Position numbers and translations under genes: made by a program. 64,000 nt of DNA, from positions 1-64,000 of the forward strand of contig JBHLRS010000012.1 in assembly GCA_048882325.1 (NCBI GenBank), in the 5' to 3' direction. Each line of letters begins with the position of its first letter. The stretch's first letter is position 1. The notes beneath the pieces are model-generated. The model had not been told where the DNA came from and ran no database searches. It worked only from the letters and a program-made list of their open reading frames with translations. Shown in pieces: positions 5,525 to 10,060 of this stretch. Source of the DNA: Candidatus Thorarchaeota archaeon. GTDB taxonomy: Archaea; Asgardarchaeota; Thorarchaeia; Thorarchaeales; Thorarchaeaceae.

Positions 5525-5893
5525 TCATGATTGAGAGTTGTCGTACTTGGCAACCTCTTCTGCTACTAGCTTCTCAATTGAACTGACATTAAACTCAATA
5601 TACTCCAAGAACAGTCCCTCTGCTACAGGATTGTCGACAGTAAGAATATCTAGAAATTGATGGAATGGATTTCTTGTTTCATCTCTCGCCAGACTATACT
5701 CGTTTTTTCCTGATGCTGTATCAAGATACTTGCGAAGGAGTCTATTCTTCTCCTCAAAACCCACAGCAGAGAGTAGTTCCTGTAACAGCATTATCATGTT
5801 TCGTTTGTATTGCTCAGTACATGGAGGTAATTGATTTTCGATATCTTTTAGTCTGTTCATAAGATGCAATTTCTTTGCTGCTGCGTCACTCAC
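5525..5893 (-). CDS. Hypothetical alpha-helical protein
   Basis: ORF 5525..6031; likely true start GTG at 5893 preceded by GGGAG; the upstream extension overlaps the terminator hairpin. Confidence 0.6.
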   Translation of the reverse strand: MSDAAAKKLHLMNRLKDIENQLPPCTEQYKRNMIMLLQELLSAVGFEEKNRLLRKYLDTASGKNEYSLARDETRNPFHQFLDILTVDNPVAEGLFLEYIEFNVSSIEKLVAEEVAKYDNSQS

Positions 5894-5959
5894 AGAATAC
5901 TCCCAAAACTCACTACATATTCTCAGAATATATGTGTAATCATGGATATCGACAAGATA

Positions 5960-6014
5960 TCTGGGGAACGAAAAGATGACAAAGAACAAAGGGTGGCAAC
6001 CCCGAAGGGTTGCC
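5960..6014 (-). terminator. Hairpin with C(UUCG)G tetraloop plus T-rich tract downstream of the Rab-like gene
   Basis: Minus strand ggcaaccc-ttcg-gggttgcc (5995-6014) followed by ctttgttctttgtcatcttttc. Confidence 0.6.
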
Positions 6015-6048
6015 GTGTAATGAAAGGGCATGTAATTATAGTTGGCAA

Positions 6049-6585
6049 TCAGTTGTCTACTAAAGACGCGTGTTTCTCGAGTGCTATTTTGGCAGCAGCC
6101 TCGAACATCTCTTTGACGCCTTCACCGGTCTTGGCAGAAACCTCCATGACCTCGGCACCATACTTGCGCGCCATCTCGGCAGCTTCCTCTATTTGGACTC
6201 CGCTGCCGTTTTCCCTTTCATCAATCTTGTTTCCGACAAAGATGATCTGACACTCAGGAGCATTCTCCTTGACTCTACCAAGCCAATCGGTGAGTCGTTG
6301 GAGTGAGAATGTCCGTGTGGCATCGTAGACTGCAATAGCAATCCTTGCACCTTTGAAGTAGTCTGAGATGACCTCTCTGAACCTGGGCTGGCCACCGAGG
6401 TCCCAGAGCATCAGTGTGACGTTGTTTTCATCAATCGTCATCTTCTTGGAAGCAAAGTTGACACCTATGGTCATCTTCATCTCTTCATCGAACCGGTTCT
6501 CGGTGTAGCGGATGGTGATGCTGGTCTTGCCAACACCACCTTCGCCCACGAGTACAGTCTTGTAGATCGGTAGTCTCCCCGCCAT
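6049..6585 (-). CDS. Rab-like small GTPase (Ras superfamily)
   Basis: G1 GEGGVGKT, G2 TIGVNF, G3 WDLGGQ, RabF-like RF...YFKGA, G4 NKID, G5 SAK; no C-terminal Cys. Confidence 0.95.
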   Translation of the reverse strand: MAGRLPIYKTVLVGEGGVGKTSITIRYTENRFDEEMKMTIGVNFASKKMTIDENNVTLMLWDLGGQPRFREVISDYFKGARIAIAVYDATRTFSLQRLTDWLGRVKENAPECQIIFVGNKIDERENGSGVQIEEAAEMARKYGAEVMEVSAKTGEGVKEMFEAAAKIALEKHASLVDN

Positions 6586-6597
6586 CTCGTATCACCT

Positions 6598-7980
6598 CTA
6601 TACACTAGATACGGTAGTCCCGAGTAACAGGTCTGCTCGACCGGTCACACCCAACCACCAGACTCCGAAAGCACTCAGAATAAATGCTGATGAAAGGAGA
6701 GTGTCAGCATTACCACCTGCTGTTCCGAGGATGAGGAACACGACTCCAAGAGCAAGGAATAGTGCTCGACTTCGACCAGGTGCACCTACTCTTCTCATTC
6801 TCCACCAAAGTAGACCATAAAGCCCCAATGGAACTACTGTTTGAAGGATGCCAGTCACTGCCATGACTATGCTACGATTTGGTATAGAATCTAGCGGGAT
6901 TGGAGGATTGGCGGTCCATCCTCCAAGCATCATAATGAATGGTGCAGCCATGATTAGCAATGGGAGAAGTATAGCTCGTTTCCAGTCTAATGCAACAATC
7001 GAACTCAAATTGAGAAGCATTGGAGAAATAAGGCCTAGAGCTAAAGCGATATACTGCGCATTAAGTCCCCCAAGAAACTCTACATGATTCAAAGCTACTA
7101 TCAACCAAGAGAATCCTGAAACGAAGAAGAAAACCCCAAGTGTGAGTGTCGCTTGGTTCCTACTCTGGCTCCATCTTGTAAATGCATAAGCACCGGTTCC
7201 GATGGACAGAATAGCACCCACGGCAATGAACGTTACTGATGTCATCCCTGCAACATCTCCAACAACAGGAGACACCAGTAGATAGCTCATGAAGTATAGC
7301 AGTGAACTAATCGTGAATGAATAGGCAATCAGCTCTGGACCAATCCTCGATCTAGGAAGAACCAAGGCGGTGATTAGTATCGCAGGTCCATAGAGACGTA
7401 GTCCTAGAACTGCAGTCACAATGGAAGGGTCTGTGAACGAGGTCGCGACTAGAATTGTAGGGTAGGTGAGTGAGAGCACCGCCAATGCAAAGCTTGTAAT
7501 TCTCTTTGTCGTTACTGTCAGGTACGCGAAGAGACCAAACGGTATGCTGAACAGAATCAGTGCAAAAATGTTCACTGCATAGTCAGTGAATCCACCCAAC
7601 ACAGATCCAGCTCCAATTTGTGTTTCTGCAAAAGCGATAAAACCAAGGACACCCATCATCGTGATTGGTATCGCGTAAAGTTTCTTTGACCCCAGAATCA
7701 TCAAAGCTGAAATCATTAGAAGTCCAGCGCCAAGAATTGCGGTTATATACCAAAAGACCTCTGCCAGACCAATTCCAGTTCCATACCAGTAGTTACTCAG
7801 AGAGGCAGCACCTAAGAAGAAAACACTAGCAACGGCAACCCACAGGGGCCGTCCAAGGTTTTTCTCTTCGGGTGGAAGGTCCTTGACTCGATTCCATGTA
7901 AATCTGAAAAGCAGAATGGTTATCAAAAAAAGACCAACTGCTGTTATCAGTTCCGAAGCATATTGTACGACTAATTGCAT
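6598..7980 (-). CDS. Polytopic membrane protein, about 15 TM (two 7TM-like units)
   Basis: About 15 hydrophobic segments with short loops; no soluble domain. Confidence 0.8.
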   Translation of the reverse strand: MQLVVQYASELITAVGLFLITILLFRFTWNRVKDLPPEEKNLGRPLWVAVASVFFLGAASLSNYWYGTGIGLAEVFWYITAILGAGLLMISALMILGSKKLYAIPITMMGVLGFIAFAETQIGAGSVLGGFTDYAVNIFALILFSIPFGLFAYLTVTTKRITSFALAVLSLTYPTILVATSFTDPSIVTAVLGLRLYGPAILITALVLPRSRIGPELIAYSFTISSLLYFMSYLLVSPVVGDVAGMTSVTFIAVGAILSIGTGAYAFTRWSQSRNQATLTLGVFFFVSGFSWLIVALNHVEFLGGLNAQYIALALGLISPMLLNLSSIVALDWKRAILLPLLIMAAPFIMMLGGWTANPPIPLDSIPNRSIVMAVTGILQTVVPLGLYGLLWWRMRRVGAPGRSRALFLALGVVFLILGTAGGNADTLLSSAFILSAFGVWWLGVTGRADLLLGTTVSSV

Positions 7981-7991
7981 TGTCTACACCC

Positions 7992-8381
7992 CTAAAGCAT
8001 CTTTGATGCCCATTCATTTGCGCGCTTCATTGCACTCTGTGCCTCACTTGCGGCAGCCTTGATTGTCGAGATTGTTTCATCAGTAACAATCTCACCGAGT
8101 GTGCCTTTGCACAGCTCGCTAATCTTGGAGTTCAGTGCGGCAGCATTCTTATCGTCCAAGTCGTGAATGGTGACCAAGAACACTCGGTCAGTTTTGGAGA
8201 TAATGATACGATAATTCTCAAGAGAGAGTTCACTGACATTCTTGCCTGAGATCTTCTTGCTGTACATCTGAATCGCTGATAGAAATCCTCCAAACAGAGC
8301 TTCGTCTATTTGGAAGTCTCCAATCGGTATGGAGGCGATGGTTTCACCGCCTTCATTCACTAGATACACACTTTGAATCAC
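7992..8381 (-). CDS. Longin-like domain protein
   Basis: MIQSVYLVNEGGETI...ALFGGFLSAIQMYSKKISG..VSELSLENYRIII, the pattern typical of Asgard longin domains. Confidence 0.75.
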   Translation of the reverse strand: MIQSVYLVNEGGETIASIPIGDFQIDEALFGGFLSAIQMYSKKISGKNVSELSLENYRIIISKTDRVFLVTIHDLDDKNAAALNSKISELCKGTLGEIVTDETISTIKAAASEAQSAMKRANEWASKML

Positions 8382-8395
8382 TATTCTTGCATCCC

Positions 8396-8650
8396 CTAGA
8401 AACTATCCATCCATTTCAGAGCCTTGTCGACTGACCCATCGTCATCAACCACTTCACCAGCGAGTTCAACGTCTCGAACAGTGAAAGTCTTGTCAACGAA
8501 TAGGATCACATTGTGACCATTGCCACATTTTGCAGGAACTAGAACTGGAATACGCTTGGCATTAGTGATCGAGTCTTCCTCAACCACAATTCCATCTATT
8601 GGCCCCCTACATTCGGGGCATGGTAGGCTATTCAGTGTCTTTTTTCCCAT
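8396..8650 (-). CDS. Small Zn-finger protein
   Basis: CPEC...CGNGH ligands; FVDKxFxVR motif; amphipathic C-terminal helix. Confidence 0.75.
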   Translation of the reverse strand: MGKKTLNSLPCPECRGPIDGIVVEEDSITNAKRIPVLVPAKCGNGHNVILFVDKTFTVRDVELAGEVVDDDGSVDKALKWMDSF

Positions 8651-8876
8651 TTAGGTCACCTCTATGCAGAATGACTTCTGCAATATCGTGCGCTGCTAGT
8701 TTGGCTGTTTCTTTGCGAAACTAACAACTAATATTCAAAAATATTCCTATATATACAATTCTAGTTGGAATTAATTGCGAAAATCGCAAAATTTACGACG
8801 TTTATTGCGGCCAAGAACAAGAAGCAAGAGTTATCAGTTTGATGATGTGAGGACGAAATATCCTGTGGCGATGCAA

Positions 8877-9143
8877 ATGGTAAAAGCCTACATTTTGATT
8901 AAGGCCACTGTTGGGCAGGAAGACGCAGTCCTCAAAGAAATGCTATCCCTCTCAGTTACAGAAGAGGCACACAAGGTTTTCGGACCCTATGACATCATGG
9001 CAGAGGTAAGAGGCCGCGACATGGAAACTTTAGTTGAGATCATCACCGAAAAGGTCCGAAAGATAAAGGGCATTACGGACACCCAATCACTTCTCGTTAT
9101 TGACAATGAGATTGATATGACCTCAACGAGTATAGGGTCCTAG
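8877..9143 (+). CDS. Stand-alone Lrp/AsnC ligand-binding (RAM) domain protein
   Basis: KAYILIK...VFGPYDIMAEV...VRKIKGITDTQS; probable start ATG 8871 or 8877. Confidence 0.85.
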   Translation: MVKAYILIKATVGQEDAVLKEMLSLSVTEEAHKVFGPYDIMAEVRGRDMETLVEIITEKVRKIKGITDTQSLLVIDNEIDMTSTSIGS

Positions 9144-9229
9144 CTAAGTCCTTTACATCGAAGATTTTCTTTTATACAATGGTCGGACAAGGGGTAGTGG
9201 GATTACATTTTCGGAGGTATCTGATTTTT

Positions 9230-10060
9230 ATGAAGACCCTTTCAAGAAAACCGTTCATGCTTATGTTGAGAGATGACTCTGGTGAGATTACTACTGTCAA
9301 GCTAGATCCTACTCTGGTCAACAGTGATAATGCACTCATTGTGCTTGACGAGTATAATGACACATGTTGGGCCTGGGTAGGTCGCAATGTGCCAATGCCA
9401 ACTCGAATGCATGCCCTCAGAATCGCTAGAGGTTTGCAGAAGTCCGGGTACCAGGTAGGGATTACAACCATTGGTCTTGCAGCATCTAGATTTGTTGAAA
9501 TGATGGAGAAAGATGATTCAGATCAGGAAGTCGCAAACAACATCGCAGAGTTCAGAGGTGCAATAGATGGTAGATGGGCCTTTGACGATGGCGTACTTGC
9601 CTTCAGAGGAGAAGCAAAGAAAGCTGAACCCATCGCTGGAGCTCCTACAAAGAAGATACTGCCCGAAGTGGAGCCAGAACCAGCGGTCAAGCTGCAAAAA
9701 CCAGAAGCTGAACCAGAGCCTATTGCTGGAGCTCCGAAACTAAAACCGAAACCAGAACCAGAGCCCACTTTGGTAGCTGAAACCATTGCAGAATCACCTC
9801 CACCAGCTCCATCGGCCTCTCTAGCAGAGAAAAAGATGGCATACCTGATGCTCTCTGTCACACGTAACTCAGATCTTGTCTACACCGAGCGATTCGAACG
9901 TGGTGGAAAGTCAGGTCTGAAGATTGAATCTCCAGGCATCATGGTCATCGAAGCTGTCCTTGATGGGAACGACCTGACAATTACTCCAGGAGACTTTGGT
10001 GGCTCAGACATCGGTAAGAAGATTAAATCAGAATACGAAGGTATGGCTAGCAAGCTATAG
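9230..10060 (+). CDS. Single gelsolin-domain protein with Pro-rich linker and C-terminal domain (1DGelX-like)
   Basis: LVNSDNALIVLDEYNDTCWAWVGRNV...RMHALRIARGL matches the gelsolin repeat consensus; GGAGGT RBS before ATG 9230; EPIAGAP x2 and PPPAP linker. Confidence 0.75.
   Translation: MKTLSRKPFMLMLRDDSGEITTVKLDPTLVNSDNALIVLDEYNDTCWAWVGRNVPMPTRMHALRIARGLQKSGYQVGITTIGLAASRFVEMMEKDDSDQEVANNIAEFRGAIDGRWAFDDGVLAFRGEAKKAEPIAGAPTKKILPEVEPEPAVKLQKPEAEPEPIAGAPKLKPKPEPEPTLVAETIAESPPPAPSASLAEKKMAYLMLSVTRNSDLVYTERFERGGKSGLKIESPGIMVIEAVLDGNDLTITPGDFGGSDIGKKIKSEYEGMASKL

What the first reader, a model, noticed from the sequence alone, without database searches (positions are those of the whole stretch)
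6049..8650. Candidate membrane signalling module: Zn-finger, longin, double-7TM protein and Rab-like GTPase in one operon
Four co-oriented genes with 11-14-bp spacers. In eukaryotes longin domains are core parts of Rab GEFs (Mon1-Ccz1, TRAPP, DENN). This Rab lacks a prenylation Cys and would need a protein anchor, which the adjacent polytopic protein could supply. Inference: a receptor/anchor, GEF and GTPase switch, a prokaryotic analogue of membrane-coupled small-GTPase signalling.
Basis: partly seen in the sequence, partly recalled or inferred. Interest (0 to 1): 0.85.

Follow-up and report, generated by a model that had tools for sequence, protein, structure and literature searches.

The report
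Asgard double-7TM, longin, Rab-like GTPase operon
A Thorarchaeota (Asgard archaeon) genome keeps one Rab-like GTPase switch in a tight, widely conserved operon with a longin-fold protein, a small zinc-ribbon protein and a 15-helix membrane protein modelled as two receptor-like seven-helix bundles. This names a testable switch, likely regulator and likely membrane partner in close relatives of eukaryotes.

Summary
On the minus strand at 6049-8650 lie four co-oriented genes separated by 14, 11 and 12 bp, each preceded by a Shine-Dalgarno-like motif.

- **Zn-ribbon protein, 84 aa:** invariant CPxC...Cx3H.
- **Longin-fold protein, 129 aa:** the AF2 model has bb-a-bbb-aa topology. The best structural match is TRAPPC4/Trs23, Z 13.
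- **Membrane protein, 460 aa, 15 TM:** built as 7+1+7. Both halves match 7TM receptor folds, and the halves align to each other.
- **Rab-like GTPase, 178 aa:** G1-G5 motifs are intact and there is no C-terminal Cys.

The four families travel together. Order ZnF-LONG-MEM-GTP was complete in 23 fetched loci from Thorarchaeia and Atabeyarchaeia. A paralogous cassette with permuted order, GTP-ZnF-LONG-MEM, occurs in many genomes, including this one. ZnF, longin and membrane-protein trees each split the two cassette types with support 99, so the cassette duplicated as a unit. The membrane family is tiny, with 62 clusters among 1.84 billion representatives.

Not shown: GEF versus GAP activity, Zn binding, and docking on the membrane protein. 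For docking, a membrane-protein/longin complex prediction gave weak support only.

I found no paper describing the module. The closest known analogue is the actinobacterial conservon. This scan has already reported the same module on other genomes and on another contig of this genome.

The parts
8651..8774 (-). Upstream intergenic region shared with a divergent gene. It holds an AT-rich TATA-like box (tatatata, about 8755-8748) and a GAGGTGA ribosome-binding motif just before the first start codon.
   Evidence: Read directly from the sequence. Promoter function is inferred only.
8396..8650 (-). Zn-ribbon protein (84 aa): CPxC (11-14) ... Cx3H (42-46), a conserved VD..RD.E strand region and a C-terminal Trp motif.
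   Evidence: ORF. C11, P12, C14, C42, H46, R, D, E and W are at least 90% conserved in 39 relatives. Only sub-threshold Pfam zinc-ribbon hits, E 0.03-0.045. No fused longer forms found.
7992..8381 (-). Longin-fold protein (129 aa) with an invariant C-terminal ...A..WA.K.L tail.
   Evidence: AF2 model with pLDDT 84 and strand/helix order bb-a-bbb-a-a. VIA best match 2j3t_D (TRAPPC4/Trs23): Z 13.0, 117 residues aligned, rmsd 2.8. Roadblock chains align only to residues 1-96. Foldseek gives longin and roadblock hits at E 6e-6 to 3e-4. No Pfam hit above cut-off.
6598..7980 (-). 15-TM membrane protein (460 aa): 7TM unit 1 (about 1-207), connector TM (215-234), 7TM unit 2 (about 243-446). Both units are N-out/C-in, and the cytoplasmic loops are highly conserved.
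   Evidence: - AF2 model with pLDDT 86.
- C-half versus GPCR folds: Z 15.8, 204 residues aligned.
- N-half (1-211) matches HlyIII/PAQR, GPCR and 7TM sensor models; C-half matches HisKA_7TM and 7TMR-DISM models.
- Halves align to each other: E 4.4e-5, 132 columns in register.
- 20 K/R on the assigned inner loops versus 1 on the outer loops.
- Inner face 77% versus outer face 54% mean identity.
6049..6585 (-). Rab-like small GTPase (178 aa): G1 GEGGVGKTS, switch I Thr, G3 WDLGGQ, G4 NKID, G5 SAK. No C-terminal Cys and no hypervariable tail.
   Evidence: Pfam Ras 1.1e-44. The best PDB relatives are Rab6B, Ypt6, Rab18 and Thorarchaeota Rab 7ezb, at about 1e-32. Motif conservation across 38 cassette GTPases and the tails are.
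5970..6014 (-). Terminator-like hairpin GGCAACCC-TTCG-GGGTTGCC followed by a T-rich tract, 35 nt after the GTPase stop codon.
   Evidence: Function is inferred.

Best explanation
The four genes are one operon encoding a membrane-associated small-GTPase switch module.

- **Membrane partner.** The 15-TM protein is a covalent tandem of two receptor-like seven-helix bundles with a variable outer face and a strongly conserved, positively charged cytoplasmic face. It is read as the sensor and/or docking site.
- **Regulatory platform.** The longin-fold protein, probably as a dimer and together with the Zn-ribbon protein, is read as the platform that binds the Rab-like GTPase. It would set the GTPase's nucleotide state, as GEF or GAP, at the cytoplasmic face of the membrane protein.
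- **Switch.** The GTPase has no lipid anchor. It is read as the diffusible or membrane-recruited output.

Shown here: operon structure, fold assignments, intact GTPase motifs, and co-inheritance and co-duplication of the components.

Inferred: who binds whom, the direction of signalling, and GEF versus GAP.
For: 1. **Tight operon.** Gaps are 14, 11 and 12 bp, each gene has an SD-like motif, and a hairpin follows the last gene.
2. **Conserved order.** ZnF>LONG>MEM>GTP is complete in 23 fetched loci from several Thorarchaeia genera and from three Atabeyarchaeia genomes. This holds even where the membrane protein is only about 30% identical.
3. **Permuted paralogous cassette.** A cassette with the same four families in order GTP>ZnF>LONG>MEM occurs in at least 9 loci. 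One is in this genome at G000:C1:93175-96568.
4. **Co-duplication.** ZnF, LONG and MEM trees each separate the two cassette types with SH-aLRT 99.
5. **Dedicated GTPase subfamily.** The Thorarchaeal cassette GTPases cluster apart from 16 other Ras-family paralogues of this genome (support 84).
6. **Longin fold.** Best match TRAPPC4/Trs23 at Z 13. Other matches include Mon1-Ccz1, BLOC-3 and CPLANE longins and MglB/LAMTOR roadblocks, all of which are GTPase platforms.
7. **Conservation on the cytoplasmic face.** Of 95 membrane-protein positions at least 90% conserved, 39 lie in the cytoplasmic-face segments and 7 in the outer-face segments. Each face makes up about 20% of the residues.
8. **Complex prediction, membrane protein plus longin: weak support.**
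   - ipSAE 0.43, best control 0.00.
   - The mark was reached by 58 of 80 solved complexes and 2 of 110 mismatched pairs. At 0.60 or under, only 7 of those 80 solved complexes reached it, as did both mismatches that passed.
   - The three runs agree in at least 97% of contacts, and the partner's pLDDT is at least 72.
9. **GTPase looks functional.** Motifs G1-G5 and the catalytic Gln are conserved, and there is no prenylation Cys.
Against: - No biochemical or expression data exist. No RNA run was listed for this DNA.
- The longin protein has no sequence-level match to any curated longin family. 8 of 30 orthologues have sub-threshold hits to Fuz_longin_1, and the window's copy has none.
- The wider neighbourhood (GDPD, RAM-domain protein, gelsolin-like protein, GNAT) is also syntenic among Thorarchaeia. 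Type A synteny alone would therefore be weak evidence.
- Two loci have ZnF-LONG-GTP without the membrane gene (L047 and the first copy in L039). The soluble trio can therefore be encoded alone.
- The module is patchy: the membrane family is found in 14 of 27 genomes of the same genus.
- The GTPase tree does not resolve the A/B split.
- 7TM folds also occur in enzymes and transporters, so 'receptor' is an inference.
Confidence: 0.55

Rival explanations
1. Same complex, opposite logic. The membrane protein is the effector or target rather than the sensor: a transporter, channel or membrane enzyme whose activity or placement is gated by the GTPase. The longin and Zn-ribbon proteins serve as the GTPase's regulators. 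This resembles G-domain control of FeoB, or Rag/Ragulator acting on SLC38A9 and LYCHOS.
For: - The Foldseek top hits for the whole membrane model are LYCHOS/GPR155, though weak (E 0.07, TM 0.3-0.38).
- The N-half matches the HlyIII/PAQR fold (TM 0.58 by the match).
- An invariant Arg195 sits inside TM7.
- Nothing tested here fixes the direction of signalling.
Against: - No Pfam transporter or enzyme family matches.
- No invariant His for a PAQR-type metal site.
- Conservation is concentrated on the cytoplasmic loops rather than in a membrane-embedded pathway.
- The best fold matches are receptor-type 7TM bundles.
Confidence: 0.17
2. The longin protein is an MglB-like GAP or polarity factor, not a GEF. 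The membrane protein merely localises GAP activity, so the module marks a membrane zone from which the active GTPase is excluded.
For: - MglB and Asgard roadblock chains are among the best structural matches (Z 10-11 over residues 1-96; Foldseek E 5e-5).
- In prokaryotes, the characterised partners of small GTPases with this fold are GAPs (PMC4316618; PMC10933270).
Against: - The topology is longin, with no N-terminal helix and with C-terminal helices present.
- The best match and the longest alignments are with Rab-GEF longins: TRAPPC4, Mon1, HPS1/BLOC-3 and Fuzzy.
- The GTPase is Rab-like, not MglA-like.
Confidence: 0.18
3. A targeting or biogenesis device rather than a signalling switch. 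By analogy with the SRP receptor, where the longin-like SRX domain of SR-alpha binds the membrane-anchored GTPase SR-beta, the longin-GTPase pair would deliver or assemble the polytopic protein or its cargo in the membrane.
For: Longin plus small GTPase plus membrane component is also the SR-alpha/SR-beta logic (established knowledge). The longin gene always sits directly upstream of the membrane gene.
Against: - No SRX or SR-beta chain was among the listed matches.
- The GTPase has no TM anchor.
- Cassette-specific co-duplication fits a dedicated partner set better than a general insertion machine.
Confidence: 0.05
4. The four genes are neighbours without a shared function.
For: The whole region is syntenic among Thorarchaeia, so conserved order of type A alone could reflect slow rearrangement.
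Against: - The same four families recur in a permuted paralogous cassette and in another Asgard class, in unrelated neighbourhoods.
- Three of the four families co-duplicated.
- Spacers are 11-14 bp with internal ribosome-binding sites.
Confidence: 0.03

Closest known systems
Actinobacterial conservon (CvnA-CvnB-CvnC-CvnD; Mfp operon), as summarised in PMC4316618
   Same: A four-gene prokaryotic operon that joins a membrane sensor protein, a roadblock/longin-superfamily protein, a small protein of unknown function and a small Ras-superfamily GTPase. It is multiplied as paralogous cassettes within genomes. It was proposed to resemble a receptor-coupled G-protein system.
   Different: - The membrane component here is a tandem 7TM protein with no histidine-kinase/ATPase domain.
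- The platform has longin, not roadblock (Robl_LC7), topology.
- The small protein is a Zn-ribbon, not DUF742.
- The GTPase is Rab-like, not MglA-family.
- No component is a sequence-level homologue.
Eukaryotic longin-platform Rab GEFs: TRAPP core (TRAPPC1/C4 = Bet5/Trs23) and tri-longin GEFs (Mon1-Ccz1, BLOC-3, CPLANE)
   Same: A longin fold paired with a Rab-type GTPase. The best structural match of the 129-aa protein is TRAPPC4/Trs23 (Z 13.0, 117 residues aligned). Mon1, HPS1 and Fuzzy longins follow at Z about 10.
   Different: - A single 129-aa longin domain, not three domains or a multi-subunit TRAPP.
- No Bet3/TRAPPC3 gene in the operon.
- No sequence-level family membership.
- GEF activity is untested.
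- The partner membrane protein and the Zn-ribbon have no counterpart in these complexes.
MglA-MglB and Asgard roadblock proteins (PMC10933270)
   Same: A small GTPase encoded next to a protein of the roadblock/longin superfamily. The structural core of residues 1-96 superposes at Z 10-11.
   Different: - Longin rather than roadblock topology.
- Rab-like rather than MglA-like GTPase.
- An added membrane protein and Zn-ribbon.
- PMC10933270 states that MK-D1 GTPase genes are generally not in operons with roadblock or longin genes, and lists longin homologues for Loki and Odin only.
LYCHOS (GPR155) / SLC38A9 with GATOR1-Ragulator-Rag on lysosomes
   Same: A polytopic membrane protein with a GPCR-like bundle that communicates with longin/roadblock complexes controlling a small GTPase. 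LYCHOS chains are the top Foldseek hits for the whole membrane model.
   Different: - The match is weak: E 0.07, TM 0.3-0.38, rmsd above 12 A.
- Here there are 15 TM made of two 7TM units, not a PIN-like transporter plus 7TM plus DEP domain.
- The GTPase is Rab-like, not Rag.
- This is an analogy only.
Prokaryotic 7TM sensor modules (HisKA_7TM, 7TMR-DISM_7TM) and eukaryotic GPCR/PAQR folds
   Same: Each half of the membrane protein superposes on these seven-helix bundles over about 200 residues. Orientation is N-out/C-in.
   Different: - No sequence match to any of these families.
- Two bundles are fused through a connector helix.
- No fused output domain (kinase, GGDEF). The output would have to be the separately encoded longin/GTPase set.

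Membership tests
Ras superfamily, Rab-like small GTPase | G1-G5 nucleotide-binding motifs with a catalytic Gln in G3 | tested here: met
   GEGGVGKTS, T39, WDLGGQ, NKID and SAK are present and at least 90% conserved across 38 cassette GTPases. Pfam Ras 152 bits against a cut-off of 21.6.
Ras superfamily, Rab-like small GTPase | Closest relatives are Rabs rather than Ras, Rho, Arf, Rag or MglA | tested here: met
   All of the best 60 solved chains are Rab/Ypt/Sec4, including 'Thorarchaeota Rab' 7ezb. Placement in a tree with eukaryotic Rabs was not done.
Ras superfamily, Rab-like small GTPase | C-terminal hypervariable tail ending in prenylatable Cys (CC, CxC, CaaX) | tested here: not met
   The protein ends 8 residues after the G domain with ...KHASLVDN and has no Cys there. 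None of the cassette GTPases ends in such a motif.
Longin domain | Fold order beta-beta-alpha-beta-beta-beta-alpha(-alpha), with no N-terminal helix | tested here: met
   AF2 model: E2-9, E14-19, H27-45, E51-54, E57-63, E67-74, H80-91, H101-128. Longin chains align over 1-117/122, best Z 13.0. This rests on a predicted model.
Longin domain | Sequence match to a curated longin family (Sybindin, Sedlin_N, Longin, Fuz_longin_1, Clat_adaptor_s) | tested here: inconclusive
   No hit above cut-off. 8 of 30 orthologues hit PF19036 Fuz_longin_1 at best E 0.0046, and the window's copy does not.
Longin domain | Dimeric platform that binds a small GTPase | not tested
Longin-longin and longin-GTPase were not modelled.
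Roadblock/LC7 (MglB, LAMTOR) | N-terminal helix before the first strand (alpha-beta-beta-alpha-beta-beta-beta) and a Robl_LC7 profile match | tested here: not met
   The model starts with a strand at residue 2. Roadblock chains align only from their residue 17-28 onward to model residues 1-96. No Robl_LC7 hit.
Conservon (CvnA-D) | Histidine-kinase-type membrane protein, Robl_LC7 protein, DUF742 protein and MglA-family GTPase | tested here: not met
   Pfam finds no HATPase/HisKA, Robl_LC7 or DUF742 in the window's proteins. The GTPase is Rab-like. The likeness is in architecture only (PMC4316618).
7TM receptor fold (GPCR-like / prokaryotic 7TM sensors) | Seven-helix bundle, N-terminus outside and C-terminus inside | tested here: met
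   - Residues 237-453 align to GPCR chains at Z 15.8 to 10.7 over 195-210 residues.
- Residues 1-211 align to HlyIII, GPCR and sensor 7TM models.
- Positive-inside count is 20 versus 1.
- The tool notes that helical models often reach Z about 14, so this shows a shared fold only.
7TM receptor fold (GPCR-like / prokaryotic 7TM sensors) | Sequence membership in a known 7TM family (7tm_1-3, HisKA_7TM, 7TMR-DISM, HlyIII) | tested here: not met
   No Pfam or NCBIfam hit for the 460-aa protein. A profile search of 1.84 billion representatives finds only 62 clusters. All matches among 400 Asgard genomes are in one Thorarchaeia family and in Atabeyarchaeia.
PAQR/HlyIII hydrolases | Conserved His/Asp metal site inside the bundle | tested here: not met
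   No His among the invariant or nearly invariant columns of alignment A2.
Zinc ribbon | Two knuckles providing four Cys/His ligands | tested here: met
   CPxC and Cx3H are at least 90% conserved in 39 relatives. The fold was not modelled and metal binding was not measured. Pfam zinc-ribbon hits are only sub-threshold.

The most novel reading that the evidence does not exclude
The tandem-7TM protein is a true ligand- or state-sensing receptor. Its conserved cytoplasmic loops would recruit a longin/Zn-ribbon platform that acts as exchange factor for a lipid-less Rab-like GTPase. That would be an archaeal receptor-to-small-G-protein pathway in which a protein anchor replaces prenylation, and a possible forerunner of longin-based Rab/Rag activation on eukaryotic membranes.
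Probability: 0.25. Interest if true: 0.9.

Novelty: new variant of a known kind. Interest (0 to 1): 0.72.

Why it matters
Asgard genomes encode dozens of small GTPases and longin/roadblock proteins; this genome alone has 33 Ras-family matches. Which regulator serves which GTPase, and how GTPases without lipid anchors reach membranes, is open. PMC10933270 states that genome layout in MK-D1 does not help to pair them.

This cassette gives a defined set: one GTPase subfamily, one longin, one Zn-ribbon and one receptor-like membrane protein. The set is co-inherited and co-duplicated, so it can be expressed and assayed directly. If the longin proves to be a GEF working at a 7TM protein, that would place longin-based Rab activation and receptor-coupled GTPase signalling before eukaryogenesis.

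Tried and rejected
- **RNA evidence.** No RNA holder was listed for window 5900-8800. Only DNA contig runs from two studies appeared.
- **Fused forms of the Zn-ribbon.** None found among longer proteins. The tool rates this as weak evidence.
- **Longin profile against PDB sequences.** Only chance-level hits, E at least 0.19.
- **PF19036 against the whole genome.** It picks other longin-containing ORFs, not the window's 129-aa protein.
- **Foldseek of the whole membrane model.** Nothing at E 0.001 or better. The LYCHOS hits at E 0.07 are treated as analogy only.
- **PAQR-type enzyme reading.** Rejected for lack of conserved His.
- **Roadblock reading.** Rejected on topology.
- **GTPase tree.** It did not resolve the type A and type B cassettes.
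- **Literature.** Searches for Asgard with longin/GTPase, GPCR/Rab, 7TM, Thorarchaeota/longin and Rab-like/operon/transmembrane found no description of this module. The library is not complete.
Full report
**1. What is there**

The window comes from a Thorarchaeota genome. Homologues carry the name 'Candidatus Thorarchaeota archaeon', and the window is G000:C12. On the minus strand, one search lists four ORFs:
- 8396-8650, 84 aa (here ZnF)
- 7992-8381, 129 aa (LONG)
- 6598-7980, 460 aa (MEM)
- 6049-6585, 178 aa (GTP)

The gaps are 14, 11 and 12 bp. Each start codon is preceded by a GAGGTGA/AGGGGTG-type motif 5-8 nt upstream. Upstream of ZnF is a 124-bp AT-rich intergenic region with a tatatata box, shared with a divergent gene. 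Thirty-five nucleotides after the GTPase stop lies the hairpin GGCAACCC-TTCG-GGGTTGCC, followed by a T-rich tract. This is the anatomy of one transcription unit. No RNA data could be found.

**2. The four proteins**

*GTP.* Pfam Ras scores 1.1e-44. The 60 best solved relatives are all Rab/Ypt/Sec4 proteins, among them the 'Thorarchaeota Rab' 7ezb. G1-G5 and the catalytic Gln are conserved across 38 cassette GTPases. The protein ends right after the G domain with no Cys.

*LONG.* There is no Pfam or NCBIfam hit.
- An AF2 model from 30 orthologues has pLDDT 84 and the element order bb-a-bbb-a-a.
- Foldseek returns both longin and roadblock chains at E 6e-6 to 3e-4.
- In the VIA second look, the best match is TRAPPC4/Trs23 (2j3t_D): Z 13.0, 117 residues, rmsd 2.8.
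- Other longin chains (COPI, AP sigma and mu, Mon1, HPS1, Fuzzy) align over residues 1-117/129.
- Roadblock chains (MglB, LAMTOR2, Asgard roadblocks) align only to residues 1-96, and only from behind their own first helix.

That is the difference between longin and roadblock described in PMC10933270. The fold is therefore longin. At sequence level, only 8 of 30 orthologues give sub-threshold hits to Fuz_longin_1, and the window's copy gives none.

*MEM.* There is no family hit. The AF2 model (pLDDT 86) has 15 long helices.
- Residues 237-453 align to GPCR-type bundles at Z 15.8 (ADGRL3, 204 residues) and downward.
- In the ESM Atlas, residues 1-211 match HlyIII/PAQR, class A GPCR and 7TM sensor models. 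Residues 238-459 match HisKA_7TM and 7TMR-DISM models.
- The two halves align to each other in register, TM1-5 with TM9-13: hhalign E 4.4e-5, probability 69%.
- K/R residues lie almost only in the odd-to-even loops, 20 versus 1. Both units are therefore N-out/C-in, and the connector helix keeps them parallel.
- Conservation is concentrated on the cytoplasmic face. Mean identity is 77% there versus 54% on the outer face. Of 95 positions at least 90% conserved, 39 lie in the cytoplasmic-face segments and 7 in the outer-face segments.

*ZnF.* CPxC...Cx3H, a VD..RD.E strand region and a C-terminal Trp are conserved in 39 relatives. Only sub-threshold zinc-ribbon Pfam hits were found.

**3. Do the genes belong together?**

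Around LONG orthologues in 20 genomes, the order ZnF>LONG>MEM>GTP is kept wherever the contig allows. This holds even where MEM is only about 30% identical. The flanking genes are also syntenic, so that alone would be weak evidence. The decisive evidence is threefold.

(a) A phylum-wide search with the MEM profile covered 400 Asgard genomes. It found the family in only one Thorarchaeia family (43 of 85 genomes) and in all three genomes of another family. Source names identify that second family as Atabeyarchaeia. There the same four genes lie in the same order, in a different neighbourhood.

(b) Many Thorarchaeia carry a second cassette with the same four families in permuted order, GTP>ZnF>LONG>MEM. 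One lies in this genome at G000:C1:93175-96568, with an extra LONG downstream.

(c) Trees of MEM, LONG and ZnF each split type A (plus Atabeyarchaeia) from type B with SH-aLRT 99. The cassette therefore duplicated as a unit.

The GTPase tree is unresolved for that split. Against the other Ras-family paralogues of this genome, however, the Thorarchaeal cassette GTPases form their own group (support 84), and 16 other paralogues group apart (support 98).

There are exceptions. ZnF-LONG-GTP occurs without MEM in two places (L047, and the first copy in L039). One orphan cassette-type GTPase lies on G000:C5. The module is also patchy: MEM is found in 14 of 27 genomes of the same genus, some of them over 90% complete.

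A profile search of 1.84 billion representatives finds only 62 MEM clusters.

**4. Binding**

One complex job, MEM plus LONG, gave weak support.
- ipSAE was 0.43, 0.38 and 0.43 in the three runs, and all three controls scored 0.00.
- The mark was reached by 58 of 80 solved complexes and 2 of 110 mismatched pairs.
- At 0.60 or under, only 7 of those 80 solved complexes reached it, as did both mismatches that passed.
- The runs agree in at least 97% of contacts, and the partner's pLDDT is at least 72.

With the strong genomic prior I read this as a modest plus, not as proof.

**5. Mechanism**

Most likely (0.55), this is a membrane-associated GTPase switch.
- The tandem-7TM protein offers a conserved cytoplasmic docking face.
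- The longin protein, as in other longin/roadblock platforms and perhaps with the Zn-ribbon, binds and regulates the Rab-like GTPase.
- The GTPase has no lipid anchor, so it would depend on protein contacts for membrane association.

Whether the longin is a GEF (as in TRAPP and Mon1-Ccz1) or a GAP (as in MglB) cannot be told from sequence. Nor can it be told whether the membrane protein is the sensor or the target.

**6. Comparison with known systems**

The closest known architecture is the actinobacterial conservon. It combines a membrane histidine-kinase-like sensor, a roadblock protein, a small unknown protein and an MglA-family GTPase, and it also occurs as paralogous cassettes (PMC4316618). 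None of the four components here is a sequence-level member of those families.

Liu et al. (10.1101/2020.10.19.343400) predicted a different Asgard operon: LAMTOR1-like protein, Rab-like GTPase and DENN protein.

PMC10933270 reports that MK-D1 GTPase genes are generally not in operons with roadblock or longin genes. It lists longin homologues for Loki and Odin only.

I found no paper that describes this cassette.

This scan has already reported the same module on other genomes and on contig C1 of this genome. I reached the same reading from my own tests and took from those notes the conservon comparison and its reference.

**7. Verdict**

This is a new variant of the known theme 'small GTPase with a roadblock/longin regulator and a membrane sensor'. 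Its value is that it names a testable partner set in Asgard archaea.

Noticed in passing
G000:C1:93175-96568 (locus L063:3176-6569): A paralogous cassette in the same genome with permuted order GTP>ZnF>LONG>MEM, plus a second, very divergent LONG 97 bp downstream. The GTPase ORF is longer (234 aa by the longest start).
   Followed up: yes
window 8775-9143 (+): The divergent neighbour matches only the AsnC/Lrp ligand-binding (RAM) domain at residues 41-109. Orthologues align only from about residue 35. It is therefore probably a stand-alone RAM protein of about 88 aa without an HTH, and the 122-aa TTG start is doubtful.
   Followed up: partly
window 9179-10060 (+): A 293-aa protein with no Pfam hit. 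It has only weak PDB hits to villin and to a gelsolin-like domain protein 7c2f_B (E 0.45 and 0.86), both over residues 32-108. It is a conserved divergent neighbour of the type A cassette in most Thorarchaeia loci, but not in Atabeyarchaeia.
   Followed up: partly
window 5525-6031 (-): A 168-aa ORF directly after the GTPase with no family. The terminator-like hairpin lies inside its first codons, so its real start, if it is a gene, is probably further downstream. A 29%-identical counterpart was seen in only one other locus (L037).
   Followed up: partly
G000:C5:51957-52430 (locus L097:1405-1992): An orphan GTPase that falls inside the cassette-GTPase clade. It has no ZnF, LONG or MEM gene next to it. 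Its neighbours are a PhzF-like protein, an unknown 244-aa ORF and a GNAT.
   Followed up: partly
The genome's other weak hits are at G000:C2:55576-55854, C2:56632-56844 and C6:84991-85167.
   Followed up: no
L038:2381-2545 (G039:C262): A 60-residue GTPase fragment (48% identity to residues 1-60) lies between MEM and the full-length GTPase. It may be a remnant of a tandem duplication.
   Followed up: no
L039 (G017:C194) and L048 (G024:C3): Tandemly duplicated type A cassettes. In L039 the first copy lacks MEM. In L048 a second LONG-MEM pair follows the GTPase.
   Followed up: partly
window 7992-8381 and 8396-8650 (-): Both soluble partners end in a conserved Trp-containing C-terminal segment: ...EWASKML in LONG (W124 invariant) and ...KWMDSF in ZnF (W at least 90% conserved). 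Its role is unknown.
   Followed up: partly
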